Shown: positions 6,971 to 10,457, counted from the stretch's first letter. The stretch is 64,000 nucleotides of DNA from Acidimicrobiales bacterium (GCA_050008715.1 JBEKMC010000004.1:3011-67010); one strand, 5' to 3'. The notes: generated from the letters alone by a model not told the origin. Numbers and translations: made by a program.

Positions 6971-8281
6971 GTGCCTCGCGTACTGCTCATCCTCCCGACC
7001 GGCACCTACCGAGCCGACGAGTATCTCGCCGCAGCCGAGCGCCTCGGTGTCGACGTCGTCGTCGGCTCCGAACGGGCACAGGCGCTCGCCGCCACGATGG
7101 GGGAGCGTTTTGTCGAGCTGCCCCTCGACGATCCGCCTGAGGCGGCCCGTCGCATCGTTGCGCAGTCCCGCCGTGACAGCCGACTCGGGCTCGATGCGAT
7201 CGTGGGTGTCGACGATCTCGGCATCGTGACCGCAGCGCTGGCGGCCCGTGAGCTCGGTCTCGTGCACAGCCCGCCCGAGGCGGTCGCCCTCACACGGGAC
7301 AAGGCGGCGATGCGGAGGGAATGGCAGCGAGCGGGTGTGCCCCAGCCGGAATTCGTCGTAGTGGAACCAGGCGAGGCCGGCGCGGTCGCCGAAGCGGTCA
7401 TGACGCTCGGCGCTCCGGTCGTGGTGAAGCCATGCTCGCTCTCCGGCAGCCGAGGCGTCATCCGGGCCGATTCGCCGGACGAGGCGCGCCGCGCTGCCGG
7501 CCGCATCAGCGCAATCCTTCGAGCCGAAGGGGAGCGGTCGGACGGACCGATGTTGGTCGAGCGTTTCGTGCCCGGGCCCGAGGTGGCGGTGGAAGGGCTC
7601 CTGCGCGACGGCCGGCTCGAGGTCATCACGATCTTCGACAAGCCGGACCCGCTCGACGGCCCGTACTTCGAAGAGACCCTCTATCTCTCCCCCACCCGCA
7701 TTCCCTCCCACGTCCGGGGGGCGGTCGTCGACGCCACCGGTGCGGCGCTGAGGGCACTCGGGCTGACCAACGGCCCGTTTCACGCCGAGTTGCGAGTGCC
7801 GGGGGCGGTGGGACCGGTGGTCGTGCTCGAGGTGGCGGCCCGCACGATCGGCGGGCGTTGCTCGAAGGCGCTCGTCATGTCCGACGGATCGAGCCTCGAG
7901 GAGCTCGTCATCTCGAACGCCATCGGGCTGCCCTACTCAACTCCGCAACTGGCTTCGCCGTGCGGCATCCTCATGATCCCGATCCCTCGAAGTGGTGTCC
8001 TGCGAGGCGTCGGTGGTGTCGACGACGTGCGCTCGTTGCCGGACATCACCGGGGTAGAGATCACCATCGCAGTCGGTCGGCCCGTGAGGGCACTACCCGA
8101 AGGAGACCGGTATCTCGGCTTTGTGTTCGCAGCCGCCTCGACAAGAGCGCTCGTCGAGGCGGCGCTCCGTGATGCCCAAGGACTCCTCGACGTCGACGTG
8201 GAGCCCGCTGAGGAGGAAGGCGCTCGCGCCGACGGCCCTGTCCGGGATGGGGACAACAAGGCCCGGGATACGGTGAGTTGA
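6971..8281 (+). CDS. ATP-grasp domain protein (carboxylate-amine/thiol ligase type), substrate unknown
   Basis: 436 aa. It has a pre-ATP-grasp N-domain (MPRVLLILPTGTYRADEYLAAAERLG) and an ATP-grasp core (LTRDKAAMRREWQRAGVPQPEF...VVVKPCSLSGSRGVIRADS...MLVERFVPGPEVAVEGLL...GPFHAELRV). GTG start. The stop overlaps the next gene's start. Confidence 0.8.
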   Translation: MPRVLLILPTGTYRADEYLAAAERLGVDVVVGSERAQALAATMGERFVELPLDDPPEAARRIVAQSRRDSRLGLDAIVGVDDLGIVTAALAARELGLVHSPPEAVALTRDKAAMRREWQRAGVPQPEFVVVEPGEAGAVAEAVMTLGAPVVVKPCSLSGSRGVIRADSPDEARRAAGRISAILRAEGERSDGPMLVERFVPGPEVAVEGLLRDGRLEVITIFDKPDPLDGPYFEETLYLSPTRIPSHVRGAVVDATGAALRALGLTNGPFHAELRVPGAVGPVVVLEVAARTIGGRCSKALVMSDGSSLEELVISNAIGLPYSTPQLASPCGILMIPIPRSGVLRGVGGVDDVRSLPDITGVEITIAVGRPVRALPEGDRYLGFVFAAASTRALVEAALRDAQGLLDVDVEPAEEEGARADGPVRDGDNKARDTVS

Positions 8282-9687
8282 TGCGCGTCCTGTTGCTCTC
8301 GACCTACGAGCTCGGCCATCAGCCGCTCAGCATTGCCGTGCCGGCCGCCGCGCTCGAAGCAGCAGGGCACTCCACCCGAGGCGTCGATCTCTCGGTCAGC
8401 GACCTCGCTCCCGATGTGCTCGCCTGGGCCGAGGCGGCCGTCATCTCAGTCCCGATGCACACGGCCACGCGCCTCGGCCGCGAGGCCATCTCGACCGTGC
8501 GCCGCGCCCGCCCGGACCTGCCCGTCGCCTGGCACGGTCTGTACGCCCCAGTCCTCGCCGGCAGCGATCGCGTCCTCCCGGGCGATCTCCTCGTGGCCGG
8601 CGAGGCGGTGCCGGCGCTGCTGGCATGGCTCGAGGCCGGCGCCGGCGTGAGTAGTGCCGTCCGAATCGATCTTGGGCCCTCTCGCGCGACGGAGCCGGCG
8701 CTGCGCCCCCTTCGGCGTGACCTCGTACCGCTCGCCGATTACGCCCGGCTGCAGATCGGTGACCGTGAGGTCGTCACGGCGAGCGTTGCCACGACGACCG
8801 GCTGCAACCACCGGTGCCGTCACTGCCCCGTGGCCTCGATCTATCGAGGACGCTCCCGCGTCATCGACATCTCCGGGGTGCTCGAGGACATCGATCAGGT
8901 CGTCGCCGCTGGTGCCCGCCACATCAGCTTCGCCGACCCGGACTTTCTCAATCGCCCGCGCCATGCCCTCGAGGTCGCCCGCCGCCTCCATGCCGGCTAC
9001 CCCGAGGTCACGTTCGATGCCACCGTCAAGGTGGAGCACATCCTCCGGCACCGCTCCCTCTGGCCGGAGCTGCGCGAGGCCGGCCTGCTGTTCGTCGTGT
9101 CCGCGTTCGAGTCGGTCGACGACCACATCCTCGCCCTCCTGGACAAAGGCCACACAGCGGCCGACGAGGGAGTTGCTCTCGGGATCGTCCGCGACGCCGG
9201 CATCGAGCTGCGTCCGTCGTGGCTCCCGTTCACGCCATGGACGACGCTCGATTCGGTCGGCGCCCTGCTGGAGTTCGTCGCCGAACAGGACCTCGTCTGG
9301 AGCACTGACGCCGTCCAGTATTCGATCCGACTCCTTCTTCCGAACGGCTCGCTCCTCCTCGAGTCCCCGGACGACACCCTCGCCTTGTCGCTACGAGACG
9401 TCGTCGACGGGAGCACAGAATGGGTCTCCATCTCCGAAGGCGTCGACGAGTTGCAGATCGCGCTTGCTGGGCGCGCCGAGATTGCCGACGGCGAACCCCC
9501 AGATGTCACCTTTACCGCCATGTGGGCACTGGCCCGCGCCGCCGGCGCTCGGATCGCGGTCCGCCCGCCCTCCCCGAGGGTCACCGCCTGGCTGCCCGGG
9601 CTGGAGCGCCCCCGCCTGACCGAGTCGTGGTTCTGTTGCGCCGAGCCGACGGGCGCTCAGCTTCAGCGGATACGCGTGCCGTCATGA
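8278..9687 (+). CDS. Radical SAM enzyme with a B12-binding-like N-terminal domain and a CCAEP C-terminal tail
   Basis: 469 aa with a CxxxCxxC motif (TTGCNHRCRHCPVASIY). The N-terminal Rossmann-like region is MRVLLLSTYELGHQPLSIAVPAAALEAAGH. The near-C-terminal motif SWFCCAEPTG matches my recollection of the curated CUAEP/CCAEP-tail radical SAM (seleno)protein family. The start is TTG 8278 or ATG 8281; both overlap the upstream stop. Confidence 0.85.
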   Translation: MMRVLLLSTYELGHQPLSIAVPAAALEAAGHSTRGVDLSVSDLAPDVLAWAEAAVISVPMHTATRLGREAISTVRRARPDLPVAWHGLYAPVLAGSDRVLPGDLLVAGEAVPALLAWLEAGAGVSSAVRIDLGPSRATEPALRPLRRDLVPLADYARLQIGDREVVTASVATTTGCNHRCRHCPVASIYRGRSRVIDISGVLEDIDQVVAAGARHISFADPDFLNRPRHALEVARRLHAGYPEVTFDATVKVEHILRHRSLWPELREAGLLFVVSAFESVDDHILALLDKGHTAADEGVALGIVRDAGIELRPSWLPFTPWTTLDSVGALLEFVAEQDLVWSTDAVQYSIRLLLPNGSLLLESPDDTLALSLRDVVDGSTEWVSISEGVDELQIALAGRAEIADGEPPDVTFTAMWALARAAGARIAVRPPSPRVTAWLPGLERPRLTESWFCCAEPTGAQLQRIRVPS

Positions 9688-10457
9688 ACGAAGTCCCCGC
9701 CGGCGCCCACGAGTGGGTGAGCTTCGACGACCCTGATGAAGAGCGGACGTGGCTCGTCGATGTCACGTTTCTCGAAAGCGGCTGGCAGTGCATCTATGGC
9801 CGTGGCTGCGAAGGTGTGCTCACCGAGCCTTCACCGGAGCTCGTGCAGGGCTGCTGTTCCTACGGGGCCCACTTCACCGGTGAGGAGGACGCCCGCCGCG
9901 TCGAGGCGGCTGCGGAGACGCTGACCGACGAGCAGTGGCAGTTCCGCAACGTCTCGGCTCGGCGCGGGGGCCCACTGCGGCGGAGCAAGAGCCGCCCGGT
10001 GACCACCCGCCTCGTGGATGGCGCCTGCATCTTCCTCAATCGTCCCGGGTACCCCTCGGGCGCGGGCTGCGCCCTGCACAAGGCGGCTCTCGATCACGAC
10101 CTGGCCCCGCTGACCCTCAAGCCGGACGTCTGCTGGCAGCTGCCGTTGCGCCGCGACGAGAGCGTCGGCCCTGACGGGCACGTCACGACGACGATCGGCG
10201 AGTGGAAACGTCGTCACTGGGGCCGGGGAGGTGCCGATTTCGCCTGGTGGTGCACCGAGTCGGCGGACGCGTTCACGGGGTCGGAGCCGGTGTACCGGAC
10301 GATGCGGGACGAGCTCGTGGAGATGCTCGGCGGCACGGTCTACGACCTCGTCGCCGGCTACCTCGAGACGCGCCGGCGTTCGGCCGCCCCCACGCGGCAC
10401 GGGGCTGCTCGCCCGGTGCGGGTGCCACACCCCGCGGTTCGCGGCGCCAACCACTGA
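9684..10457 (+). CDS. Cys-rich conserved hypothetical protein (putative Fe-S/Zn binding), third gene of the operon
   Basis: 257 aa from the ATG at 9684, which forms an ATGA overlap with the radical SAM stop. Cys motifs are WQCIYGRGCEGV, QGCCSYGAHF, DGACIFLNRPGYPSGAGCALH, KPDVCWQLP and FAWWCTE. The 88-codon upstream extension in the track ORF was rejected. Confidence 0.7.
   Translation: MNEVPAGAHEWVSFDDPDEERTWLVDVTFLESGWQCIYGRGCEGVLTEPSPELVQGCCSYGAHFTGEEDARRVEAAAETLTDEQWQFRNVSARRGGPLRRSKSRPVTTRLVDGACIFLNRPGYPSGAGCALHKAALDHDLAPLTLKPDVCWQLPLRRDESVGPDGHVTTTIGEWKRRHWGRGGADFAWWCTESADAFTGSEPVYRTMRDELVEMLGGTVYDLVAGYLETRRRSAAPTRHGAARPVRVPHPAVRGANH

What the first reader, a model, noticed from the sequence alone, without database searches (positions are those of the whole stretch)
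6971..10457. Uncharacterised three-gene operon: ATP-grasp ligase, CCAEP-tail radical SAM enzyme and Cys-rich protein
Three ORFs are joined by overlapping stop/start codons (TGATG at 8279-8283 and ATGA at 9684-9687), so they form one unit.

- **Gene 1** is an ATP-grasp ligase with no obvious substrate assignment.
- **Gene 2** is a radical SAM enzyme (CNHRCRHC) with a B12-binding-like N-domain. It carries the rare C-terminal motif CCAEP (SWFCCAEPTG). I recall this as the non-selenocysteine form of a curated but functionally unassigned CUAEP/CCAEP-tail family.
- **Gene 3** is a 257-aa protein with at least eight conserved-looking Cys residues (C-x5-C, CC, C-x13-C-x2-H).

An NfuA-like Fe-S carrier is divergently transcribed 123 nt upstream. 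The ligase plus radical SAM pairing recalls cofactor or modified-amino-acid pathways such as PylB/PylC and RiPP maturation. No precursor-peptide gene is evident inside the operon.
Basis: partly seen in the sequence, partly recalled or inferred. Interest (0 to 1): 0.7.

Follow-up and report, generated by a model that had tools for sequence, protein, structure and literature searches.

The report
Ligase plus CCAEP-tail radical SAM module
An uncharacterised enzyme pair, an amino-acid ligase and a radical SAM enzyme with a Cys-Cys tail, sits beside an iron-sulfur carrier gene in many soil bacteria, and its closest studied relative makes the arsenic antibiotic arsinothricin, so it probably builds an unknown modified amino acid or dipeptide.

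Summary

- **Gene 1** is an L-amino-acid-ligase-type ATP-grasp. Its best solved relative is BL00235, which makes Met-Gly.
- **Gene 2** best matches NCBIfam's CUAEP/CCAEP-tail radical SAM model (466.5 bits, cut-off 500). It carries CNHRCRHC and WFCCAEPT. [quoted passage not shown]
- **Gene 3** is a Rv0495c/DUF3109-family protein with eight invariant Cys.

Of 66 related loci with enough flank, 49 have nfuA, ATP-grasp and radical SAM together, across Acidimicrobiia, Thermoleophilia and Chloroflexota. Gene 3 is adjacent in only 11 of 80. Selenocysteine forms (15 of 80) mostly keep the same partners. One ATP-grasp–radical SAM fusion exists. The ArsL sister family also carries a BL00235-like ligase in 35 of 36 plasmid records.

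My best reading (confidence about 0.4): the radical SAM enzyme puts ACP onto a thiophilic atom held by its flexible CC arm, the ligase turns the product into a dipeptide, and NfuA services the cluster. The acceptor atom is unknown. I found no published function for the family.

The parts
6197..6847 (-). nfuA-type Fe-S carrier: a Cys-free A-type N-domain plus an Nfu domain with CQGC. It is divergently transcribed from gene 1.
   Evidence: Pfam NifU domain, E 5.7e-19. NCBIfam TIGR03341 NfuA is the top hit at 78 bits, below the 269 cut-off. The CxxC and the C-terminal DVTDH..G.NPY motif are conserved in 45 neighbours. It lies next to the radical SAM gene in 53 of 66 loci.
6848..6970 (.). 123-nt divergent intergenic region shared by nfuA and gene 1.
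   Evidence: Read from the sequence. No Rfam match. No sigma-70 consensus site in this region. Related loci often carry a TAnnnT-like box just before the ligase start codon.
6971..8281 (+). Gene 1: L-amino-acid-ligase-type ATP-grasp enzyme, 436 aa.
   Evidence: Pfam ATP-grasp_4 89 bits, LAL_C2 57.5 bits and ATPgrasp_N 41.8 bits, all above cut-off. Best PDB relative is 3VOT BL00235, E 4e-32 over residues 21-402; BacD scores 1e-12. It is found fused to the radical SAM enzyme in P0469, 37% identity over 408 aa.
8281..9687 (+). Gene 2: CCAEP-tail radical SAM enzyme, 468 aa, with a Rossmann (B12-binding-like) N-domain and a radical SAM barrel.
   Evidence: NF040546, 466.5 bits, covering profile positions 1-467 of 468. 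NF040542 ArsL, 213.5 bits. It is 30% identical over 422 aa to a B. cereus RCCLKC-tail protein, E 2e-59. AF2 mean pLDDT is 89.4. Foldseek hits are TsrM, OxsB, AprD4 and MiaB.
8803..8826 (+). CxxxCxxC motif (CNHRCRHC) that ligates the [4Fe-4S] cluster.
   Evidence: The three Cys are invariant in 18 family members and also in the ArsL-family sequences.
9628..9651 (+). WFCCAEPT tail motif with the vicinal Cys pair at 9634-9639. Relatives carry Sec at the second position.
   Evidence: Sequence read. W, F and the first Cys are invariant and the second Cys nearly so. In 15 of 80 loci an in-frame TGA occupies the second position, followed by a SECIS-like hairpin. The tail has low pLDDT, 62 then 54, consistent with a flexible arm.
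9684..10457 (+). Gene 3: Cys-rich Rv0495c/DUF3109-family protein, 257 aa. It is translationally coupled here but is a lineage-specific neighbour.
   Evidence: The identical protein carries a precomputed PF11307 (Rv0495c) hit. My own scan with the older model gave only 15.4 bits. Eight Cys are invariant. It is adjacent in 11 of 80 loci.
10505..10522 (+). Terminator-like hairpin 48 nt after the gene 3 stop; weak evidence.
   Evidence: It is the only such site in 6100-11400, and the count is no higher than in shuffled sequence.

Best explanation
The functional core is a three-part module: nfuA, transcribed divergently from an L-amino-acid ligase (gene 1) and a CCAEP-tail radical SAM enzyme (gene 2).

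**Proposed mechanism, by analogy with the sister enzyme ArsL (inferred, not shown)**
1. Gene 2 binds SAM on its CxxxCxxC [4Fe-4S] cluster.
2. [quoted passage not shown]
3. [quoted passage not shown]
4. The product is a gamma-substituted 2-aminobutyrate, a methionine- or glutamate-like amino acid.
5. Gene 1, whose closest solved relative takes methionine as the N-terminal substrate, condenses that amino acid with a second amino acid into a dipeptide.
6. NfuA inserts or repairs the [4Fe-4S] cluster.

Gene 3 (Rv0495c family) is a redox-linked Cys-rich metalloprotein added to the operon only in this Acidimicrobiales lineage. It is not part of the conserved machine.

**Shown here:** the gene identities, the motifs, the conservation of the module, the Sec forms, the fusion and the parallel ligase in ArsL-family clusters.

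**Inferred:** the ACP chemistry, the role of the tail, the order of the two steps and the nature of the acceptor. A two-thiolate site would suit S, Se, methylarsenite-type or Hg-type centres, and I cannot choose between them.
For: **Relation to ArsL**
- ArsL is the second-best family for gene 2 (213.5 bits, E 6e-63) and aligns over residues 4-396.
- Gene 2 is 30% identical over 422 aa to a B. cereus RCCLKC-tail protein, with shared motifs throughout the core.
- ArsL makes MTA plus ACP, and its RCCLKC tail binds As(III) (bioRxiv 10.1101/2024.02.01.577332; 10.64898/2026.04.29.721666).
- An ArsL variant the review calls the 'MCCA mutant' was the most active on methylarsenate substrate, with arsenic acted on in its trivalent form (PMC13598754).

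**The tail**
- In both families a vicinal CC sits near the C-terminus.
- In gene 2 the tail is predicted to be flexible.
- CC and CU motifs have been linked by others to soft-metal and organometallic chemistry (Haft 2022).

**Coupling of ligase and radical SAM enzyme**
- The stop and start codons overlap.
- ATP-grasp and NfuA lie directly upstream in 49 of 66 loci across three lineages.
- The partners are retained in at least 6 Sec-form loci.
- A natural fusion, P0469, lies in the same nfuA/aro synteny.
- 35 of 36 plasmid records with an ArsL-family gene also carry a BL00235-like ATP-grasp within about 5 kb.

**Ligase type**
- BL00235 is the top solved relative, and it makes Met-Gly and Met-Met (PMC6920838).
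Against: - No biochemical data exist for any CCAEP-family member. Nothing shown here distinguishes S-C(gamma) cleavage from S-C5' cleavage.
- Gene 2 scores under the curated cut-offs of both families.
- No ars, mer or sel genes, exporter, methyltransferase or resistance gene is conserved around the module. That is unlike the ArsL clusters and argues against an arsenical or an antibiotic.
- The housekeeping-like synteny (aro genes, PDH and lip genes) suggests core physiology.
- 13 of 66 loci, and the cultured Thermomicrobium roseum, have the radical SAM gene without either partner nearby.
- The fusion P0469 is a singleton, and a one-base error at a TGATG junction could create it.
- Gene 1 is no closer to the ArsL-linked ligases (23-26% identity) than to BL00235. 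The two ligase partnerships may therefore have arisen independently.
Confidence: 0.4

Rival explanations
1. Canonical radical SAM chemistry. Gene 2 makes the 5'-deoxyadenosyl radical and modifies an amino acid or the dipeptide made by gene 1, for example by epimerisation, C-C or C-S bond formation, or dehydration. The Cys-Cys/Cys-Sec arm acts as a redox or H-atom-donating shuttle, like the C-terminal Cys-Sec of thioredoxin reductase or the tail cysteines of ribonucleotide reductase, and not as a substrate holder.
For: Almost all PF04055 enzymes use 5'-dA chemistry. The nearest solved folds (AprD4, OxsB, MiaB, MgmA) all do. Selenocysteine is typically a redox residue (general knowledge). No metal(loid)-handling genes are conserved nearby.
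Against: The closest characterised homologue is the one known PF04055 enzyme that makes the ACP species. It shares the same 'vicinal CC near the C-terminus' architecture and the same type of ligase partner.
Confidence: 0.27
2. Sulfur (or selenium) insertion at the expense of an Fe-S cluster or persulfide. The acceptor for the SAM-derived carbon radical is a cluster sulfide or a tail persulfide. This gives a homocysteine-type thio- or seleno-amino acid, which the ligase converts into a dipeptide, possibly a lineage-specific low-molecular-weight thiol. NfuA would be needed stoichiometrically to rebuild the sacrificed cluster, as it is for LipA.
For: NfuA is the tightest partner, 53 of 66 loci, and 4 loci have it without the ligase. 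In six Chloroflexota loci lipB-lipA-PDH follows directly. A DsrE-like CxxC protein sits next door in 12 loci. Gene 3's family gives a redox-homeostasis phenotype in M. tuberculosis. The role of NfuA in regenerating LipA's auxiliary cluster is established knowledge.
Against: Only the three radical SAM Cys plus the CC pair are conserved, so there is no obvious auxiliary-cluster site. A thiolate or persulfide could attack SAM's C(gamma) without radical chemistry (chemical reasoning). Making homocysteine from SAM is metabolically circular.
Confidence: 0.15
3. Protein or peptide modification (RiPP-like or diphthamide-like). The radical SAM enzyme modifies a residue of a protein or peptide, and the ATP-grasp adds an amino acid to it or cyclises it. 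NfuA or a small neighbouring ORF would be the target.
For: Dph2 puts ACP on a protein His. ATP-grasp enzymes also act on peptides (general knowledge). The DUF3109/YkgJ superfamily has been proposed to include an amine methyltransferase, DpdM, which would echo the diphthamide steps.
Against: The ligase has the free-amino-acid LAL architecture, including LAL_C2. No precursor-like small ORF is conserved across the 80 loci. The linked NfuA looks entirely standard, with no extra conserved residue. Gene 3 is not conserved with the pair.
Confidence: 0.06

Closest known systems
ArsL (arsinothricin biosynthesis radical SAM protein, RCCLKC-tail family, NF040542)
   Same: The domain order is the same: a Rossmann-like N-domain, then a CxxxCxxC barrel. 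Identity is 30% over about 420 aa, with shared core motifs. Both have a vicinal Cys pair near the C-terminus. Both families are usually next to a BL00235-like L-amino-acid ligase.
   Different: The tail is WFCCAEP, two Cys with the second sometimes Sec, about 50 residues further from the core. ArsL has RCCLKC with three Cys. The window has no arsR, arsM, aquaporin, CobW GTPase, MFS or ArsN context; NfuA is the constant partner instead. Gene 2 scores 213 bits against a cut-off of 450.
CUAEP/CCAEP-tail radical SAM (seleno)protein family (NF040546), curated but uncharacterised
   Same: Best-scoring family, aligned end to end. The tail motif is present. Relatives with Sec exist.
   Different: The window protein and its closest Acidimicrobiales relatives fall just below the equivalog cut-off (466.5 against 500). 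NCBI names some of them only 'radical SAM protein'.
L-amino acid ligases BL00235 (3VOT) and BacD/YwfE
   Same: The three-domain LAL architecture is shared. BL00235 aligns over nearly the full length at E 4e-32. BL00235 uses Met, a gamma-substituted 2-aminobutyrate, as the N-terminal substrate.
   Different: Sequence identity is low and the substrates are unknown. Gene 1 is paired with a radical SAM enzyme and NfuA rather than standing alone or sitting in a bacilysin-type cluster.
PylB/PylC (pyrrolysine biosynthesis)
   Same: The logic is the same: a radical SAM enzyme makes a non-standard amino acid, which an ATP-grasp ligase joins to a second amino acid.
   Different: PylB is only a distant fold match, rank 28 at E 2e-5. 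It has no N-terminal Rossmann domain and no Cys tail, and it uses 5'-dA chemistry.
MerA C-terminal Cys-Cys arm and thioredoxin reductase Cys-Sec tail
   Same: Each has a vicinal Cys-Cys or Cys-Sec pair on a mobile C-terminal tail that fetches a soft metal or shuttles electrons. This comparison rests on general knowledge.
   Different: These enzymes have unrelated folds and are flavoenzymes, not radical SAM enzymes. The comparison is an analogy for the tail only.

Membership tests
CUAEP/CCAEP-tail radical SAM (seleno)protein (NF040546) | Whole-protein score at or above the curated cut-off (500 bits) | tested here: not met
   466.5 bits, E 8.8e-140, aligned over profile positions 1-467 of 468. 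It is the top hit by a wide margin but lies 33 bits under the cut-off.
CUAEP/CCAEP-tail radical SAM (seleno)protein (NF040546) | C(U/C)AEP motif near the C-terminus | tested here: met
   WFCCAEPT at 9628-9651. The motif is conserved in 18 of 18 aligned members, one of them truncated at the Sec codon.
CUAEP/CCAEP-tail radical SAM (seleno)protein (NF040546) | CxxxCxxC radical SAM motif and a B12-binding-like N-domain | tested here: met
   CNHRCRHC is present. PF04055 scores 43 bits. PF02310 is weak (E 7e-4). The AF2 model matches TsrM, OxsB and AprD4.
CUAEP/CCAEP-tail radical SAM (seleno)protein (NF040546) | Sec and Cys interchange at the second tail position in homologues | tested here: met
   15 of 80 loci have an in-frame TGA there, followed by a hairpin with compensatory changes 15 nt downstream. 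By my count about 29 of the 150 best representatives end at ...WFC.
ArsL (NF040542) | Score at or above 450 bits and an RCCLKC tail | tested here: not met
   213.5 bits. The tail is CCAEP, with no third Cys.
ArsL (NF040542) | Arsenic gene context (arsM, arsR, ArsQ/MFS, ArsN) | tested here: not met
   None of these were identified among the neighbour clusters I annotated in the window and the 80 loci. They are present in the ArsL-family plasmid clusters.
ArsL (NF040542) | Cleaves SAM to MTA plus an ACP species | not testable with these tools
   This needs enzyme assays.
L-amino acid ligase (ATP-grasp, LAL type) | ATPgrasp_N, ATP-grasp_4 and LAL_C2 domains above Pfam cut-offs | tested here: met
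   41.8, 89.0 and 57.5 bits. BL00235 scores E 4e-32.
L-amino acid ligase (ATP-grasp, LAL type) | ATP-dependent dipeptide formation from free amino acids | not testable with these tools
   This needs enzyme assays.
NfuA (TIGR03341) | Score at or above 269 bits | tested here: not met
   78.3 bits. It is the top hit, aligned over profile positions 2-190 of 190.
NfuA (TIGR03341) | Degenerate A-type N-domain plus an Nfu domain with CxxC | tested here: met
   The N-domain has no Cys. The CQGC motif and the C-terminal motif are conserved in 45 neighbours.
PF11307 (Rv0495c / DUF3109) | Pfam hit above the gathering score | tested here: inconclusive
   My scan with PF11307.13 gave 15.4 bits against a cut-off of 33.5. 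The identical JGI protein and all 120 listed homologues carry a precomputed PF11307.14 hit.
RiPP maturation system | A conserved precursor-peptide gene next to the modifying enzymes | tested here: not met
   No small ORF cluster is conserved with the pair across the 80 loci.

The most novel reading that the evidence does not exclude
The nfuA, ligase and CCAEP/CUAEP radical SAM module may be a second natural example of ArsL-type non-canonical radical SAM chemistry. In this reading it forges a carbon-heteroatom bond (C-S, C-Se or C-metal(loid)) on a Cys-Cys/Cys-Sec arm. The result would be a previously unknown ACP-derived amino acid and dipeptide that is part of the core physiology of Acidimicrobiia, Thermoleophilia and Chloroflexota, for example a new low-molecular-weight thiol or selenol, or an organometal(loid) metabolite. 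In parallel, the ligase-bearing ArsL-family clusters of Bacillus, Priestia, Pantoea and Klebsiella would make arsinothricin-type dipeptides.
Probability: 0.3. Interest if true: 0.85.

Novelty: new variant of a known kind. Interest (0 to 1): 0.64.

Why it matters
ArsL is described as the one canonical-fold radical SAM enzyme known to make an ACP species rather than the 5'-deoxyadenosyl radical. Its sister family is far more widespread:
- at least 592 species genomes matched in the scan;
- 295 cluster representatives at E ≤ 1e-30;
- a sizeable fraction are selenoproteins.

No function has been assigned to that family.

This work shows that the family travels with a methionine-type amino-acid ligase and a dedicated Fe-S carrier, and that ArsL-family clusters carry the same kind of ligase. 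That turns "unknown radical SAM protein" into a concrete, testable two-step pathway: an ACP-X amino acid, then a dipeptide.

It also names a cultured organism that carries a Sec-form copy, Thermomicrobium roseum DSM 5159.

Finally, it suggests that arsinothricin may be made as a peptide in many Bacillota and Enterobacterales.

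Tried and rejected
- **Structure of gene 3.** The AF2 model was poor (pLDDT 61.8), with the Cys-rich stretches unmodelled, so I did not fold-search it.
- **Sequence search of PDB.** It found nothing for gene 2 or gene 3.
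- **afdb50 fold library.** It was unavailable, so I could not list cultured-organism homologues that way.
- **Riboswitch or other RNA in the divergent intergenic region.** None was found.
- **Promoter and terminator scan.** It was uninformative.
- **RiPP reading.** Rejected, because the ligase is of the LAL type and no precursor is conserved.
- **NfuA as the modification target.** The linked NfuA has only the standard conserved features.
- **MerB link.** A CCAEP radical SAM-MerB fusion (P0377) exists, with a second MerB on the same contig. tblastn with its MerB domain found nothing in the window or in any fetched locus, so this remains a single-contig clue.
- **Specific kinship of gene 1 with the ArsL-linked ligases.** Not demonstrated. 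Identity is 23-26%, no closer than to BL00235.
- **Partners in T. roseum.** A search of the plasmid collection for a gene 1 orthologue in T. roseum was negative.
- **Literature.** Searches for CUAEP/CCAEP, for ArsL homologues with ATP-grasp, for DUF3109 and for DUF169 gave no functional study of this family.

Full report

Yes. The ORF list gives 6971-8281 (+, 436 aa), 8278/8281-9687 (+, 469/468 aa) and an ORF ending at 10457 whose conserved start is the ATG at 9684 (257 aa). The sequence shows TGATG at 8279-8283 and ATGA at 9684-9687, so the stop and start codons overlap. CNHRCRHC lies at 8803-8826 and WFCCAEPT at 9628-9651.

A divergent nfuA-like gene ends its coding region at 6847, which leaves a 123-nt gap. 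An identical JGI metagenome contig carries the same three gene calls. Each protein has thousands of homologues, and the best are from Acidimicrobiales MAGs. The window therefore comes from a high-GC Acidimicrobiales-like actinobacterium.

**2. What the genes are.**

*Gene 1* has the three Pfam domains of L-amino-acid ligases: ATPgrasp_N, ATP-grasp_4 and LAL_C2. Its best solved relative is BL00235 (3VOT), at E 4e-32 over almost the whole length, followed by BacD. BL00235 makes Met-Gly and Met-Met (PMC6920838).

*Gene 2* hits NCBIfam NF040546, the CUAEP/CCAEP-tail radical SAM (seleno)protein family, end to end at 466.5 bits. That is just under the 500-bit cut-off. Its second hit is NF040542, ArsL, at 213.5 bits. 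The AF2 model is confident (pLDDT 89.4) except for the last 20 residues, which carry the CC pair. It resembles the Rossmann-plus-barrel enzymes TsrM, OxsB, AprD4, MgmA and MiaB.

*Gene 3* has eight invariant Cys and three invariant His. It belongs to PF11307, now named after M. tuberculosis Rv0495c. My scan with the older model version was sub-threshold. Deleting Rv0495c perturbs redox homeostasis in M. tuberculosis, but the molecular function is unknown (bioRxiv 10.1101/2023.08.22.554105). Its AF2 model was too poor to use.

The *nfuA* product has the standard NfuA layout: a Cys-free A-type domain plus an Nfu CxxC domain.

**3. What is conserved.**

I examined the best 80 loci. They come from Acidimicrobiia, Thermoleophilia/Solirubrobacterales and Chloroflexota, plus one Acidobacteriota MAG. 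I analysed them by tblastn and by my own ORF clustering.

| Arrangement | Loci |
|---|---|
| nfuA< ATP-grasp> radical SAM>, of 66 loci with at least 2.5 kb upstream | 49 |
| nfuA only | 4 |
| neither partner | 13 (one of these has the pair a few kb away, inverted) |
| gene 3 directly downstream, of 80 | 11 |
| gene 3 about 4 kb away on the other strand | 3 |

The 11 loci with gene 3 directly downstream include those of the window's own subclade, which shares the aroB-aroK-aroC context.

Other recurrent neighbours within 5 kb, out of 76 loci:
- DUF169, 21 loci, and also in the window near 19.7-20.4 kb
- pyruvate dehydrogenase E1, 15 loci, in two unrelated arrangements
- a DsrE-like CxxC protein, 12 loci
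- lipB-lipA-PDH directly downstream, six Chloroflexota loci

**4. Selenocysteine forms.**

Fifteen of 80 loci have an in-frame TGA at the second Cys, with the frame continuing as AEPT..Q. All have a 6-7-bp hairpin starting 15 nt after the UGA, with compensatory substitutions, as expected for a bacterial SECIS. At least six of them with sufficient flank keep the ATP-grasp and NfuA partners; four have neither nearby. By my count, about 29 of the 150 best 50%-identity representatives end exactly at ...WFC.

The copy on the Thermomicrobium roseum DSM 5159 megaplasmid is also a TGA form, annotated as ending at the TGA.

**5. Evidence that the ligase and the radical SAM enzyme work together.**

- The genes overlap.
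- The pair is conserved across phyla.
- A natural 850-aa fusion, P0469, joins a gene 1-like ligase (37% identity over 408 aa) to a CCAAP-tail radical SAM enzyme, in the same nfuA/aro synteny. It is a singleton and could be an assembly error.
- The sister RCCLKC-tail (ArsL) family shows the same pairing. Of 36 plasmid records, 35 also carry an ATP-grasp within about 5 kb. These are 20 from the Bacillus cereus group, 7 Priestia, 6 Pantoea, 1 Klebsiella and 1 Alicyclobacillus. Only the Pseudomonas amygdali arsL lacks it.
- The ATP-grasps I examined from these clusters are LAL-type: two of three hit LAL_C2, and the one searched against the PDB has BL00235 as its top relative. The arsinothricin literature I could search does not mention them.

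**6. Mechanism.**

ArsL cleaves SAM to MTA and an ACP species. Its RCCLKC tail binds As(III) through three Cys, and the C-As bond gives hydroxyarsinothricin. An ArsL variant the review calls the 'MCCA mutant' was the most active on methylarsenate substrate.

Gene 2 shares the core (30% identity, E 2e-59) and the idea of a vicinal CC on a C-terminal arm. The arm is about 50 residues longer and has two thiolates, sometimes a thiolate and a selenolate.

The most economical reading has three steps. ACP is transferred to a thiophilic atom held by the arm. The ligase then joins the resulting methionine-like amino acid to a second amino acid. NfuA services the cluster.

I put this at about 0.4, because no experiment on this family exists and the context differs from ArsL. 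There are no ars genes, no exporter, no methyltransferase and no resistance gene. The synteny instead looks housekeeping-like.

The acceptor is open:
- **Sulfur or Fe-S clues:** NfuA, the DsrE-like protein and the lip genes.
- **Soft metal(loid) clues:** the ArsL kinship, the CC/CU motif (Haft 2022), one radical SAM-MerB fusion with a second MerB nearby, and DUF169, which is drawn beside Nitrospina hgcA-like and merR genes in bioRxiv 10.1101/648329.

The main rival is ordinary 5'-dA chemistry with the CC/CU arm as a redox shuttle (0.27). A sacrificial-sulfur variant gets 0.15 and a protein-modification variant 0.06.

**7. Comparison with what is known, and novelty.**

The protein is best filed as a slightly sub-threshold member of the curated but uncharacterised CCAEP-tail family. 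It is not ArsL: the score, the tail and the context tests all fail. PylB/PylC is a fair analogy of logic only.

I did not find the following described in the literature I could search:
- the conserved nfuA, LAL ligase and radical SAM module
- its persistence in Sec forms
- the fusion
- the parallel ligase in ArsL-family clusters

I rate it a new variant of a known kind, with interest about 0.64. It would rise sharply if ACP chemistry on a new acceptor were shown.

Noticed in passing
L083 1444-2667, L084 8572-9777, L085 3436-4668, L086 3638-4861 (plasmids of B. cereus, Pantoea ananatis, Alicyclobacillus acidocaldarius, Priestia aryabhattai): ArsL-family (RCCLKC-tail) clusters carry a BL00235-like L-amino-acid-ligase ATP-grasp alongside ArsM, MFS, a CobW-type GTPase, an aquaporin, ArsN and ArsR. 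This holds for 35 of 36 plasmid records. It suggests arsinothricin-type dipeptides, and the arsinothricin papers I could search do not mention it.
   Followed up: partly
L048, L049, L055, L056, L060, L062-L064, L066, L068, L070, L071, L076, L077, L079 (TGA positions listed): In the Sec forms of the radical SAM gene, a stem-loop (for example GAGGGCC-AGUUN-GGCCCUC) starts 15 nt after the UGA and shows compensatory base changes. This is a SECIS-like element overlapping the codons for ..PTExQ(F/L)GP.
   Followed up: yes
L082 9935-11371 (Thermomicrobium roseum DSM 5159 megaplasmid NC_011961): The RefSeq CDS for the CUAEP/CCAEP-tail protein stops at an in-frame TGA after WFC, and the frame continues as AEPLED. 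It is therefore a probable selenoprotein annotated as truncated, in a cultured organism. Its neighbours are a PLP aminotransferase (divergent) and an MFS transporter, not the ligase or NfuA.
   Followed up: partly
P0377 (JGI 3300047160, 8.3-kb contig; no DNA available): A 695-aa protein joins a CCAEP-tail radical SAM enzyme to a C-terminal MerB (alkylmercury lyase) domain. A second stand-alone MerB gene lies 3.7 kb downstream. This is a single contig, and no MerB was found in the other 80 loci.
   Followed up: partly
L087 8001-10553 (GCA_004366215.1 SIRY01000078): An 850-aa ORF fuses a gene 1-like ATP-grasp to a CCAAP-tail radical SAM enzyme. It is divergent from a NifU-domain gene and near aroC, aroB, aroQ, efp and nusB. 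It is a singleton, so an assembly artefact is not excluded.
   Followed up: yes
window ~19665-20372 (+), and cluster c3 in 21 of 76 loci: A DUF169 (COG2043) gene lies about 9 kb downstream in the window. In Acidimicrobiia and Chloroflexota it flanks the module on either side. Its function is unknown, and it is drawn beside Nitrospina hgcA-like and merR genes in one preprint.
   Followed up: partly
L015, L018, L040, L042, L045, L065 (about 11.4-18.5 kb); L014, L049, L067, L073, L074, L078, L080: Pyruvate dehydrogenase E1 sits near the radical SAM gene in two unrelated layouts. In Chloroflexota the radical SAM gene is followed by lipB, lipA, aceE, E2 and E3. In some Acidimicrobiia the order is aceE<, alpha/beta-hydrolase<, radical SAM>. 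I have no explanation for this.
   Followed up: no
for example L027 11445-11810 (-); cluster c5 in 12 Thermoleophilia loci: A 121-aa DsrE-like protein with a CDRC motif lies immediately downstream of the radical SAM gene on the opposite strand. It is reminiscent of the DsrE-like SaoD of Haft's SAO locus.
   Followed up: partly
window 11040-11294 (+): A conserved 84-aa ORF (cluster c13, 8 loci, no Pfam match) lies between gene 3 and the alpha-amylase-family gene at 11297-13051.
   Followed up: no
window 6950-6970 and the equivalent positions in L015, L036, L040, L055, L060, L065, L076: A TAnnnT-like box (CATCATGG, CTATGATAG, CCATCATAG and similar) lies 5-10 nt before the ligase start codon. This suggests a leaderless transcript.
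   Followed up: no
L023, L024, L072 (11.7-14 kb): In one Acidimicrobiaceae lineage the ligase is absent (nfuA< radical SAM>). In three of its four loci, genes I read by eye as pstS-pstC phosphate-transporter genes follow the radical SAM gene. B. cereus and Priestia ArsL clusters also hold a phosphate transporter.
   Followed up: no
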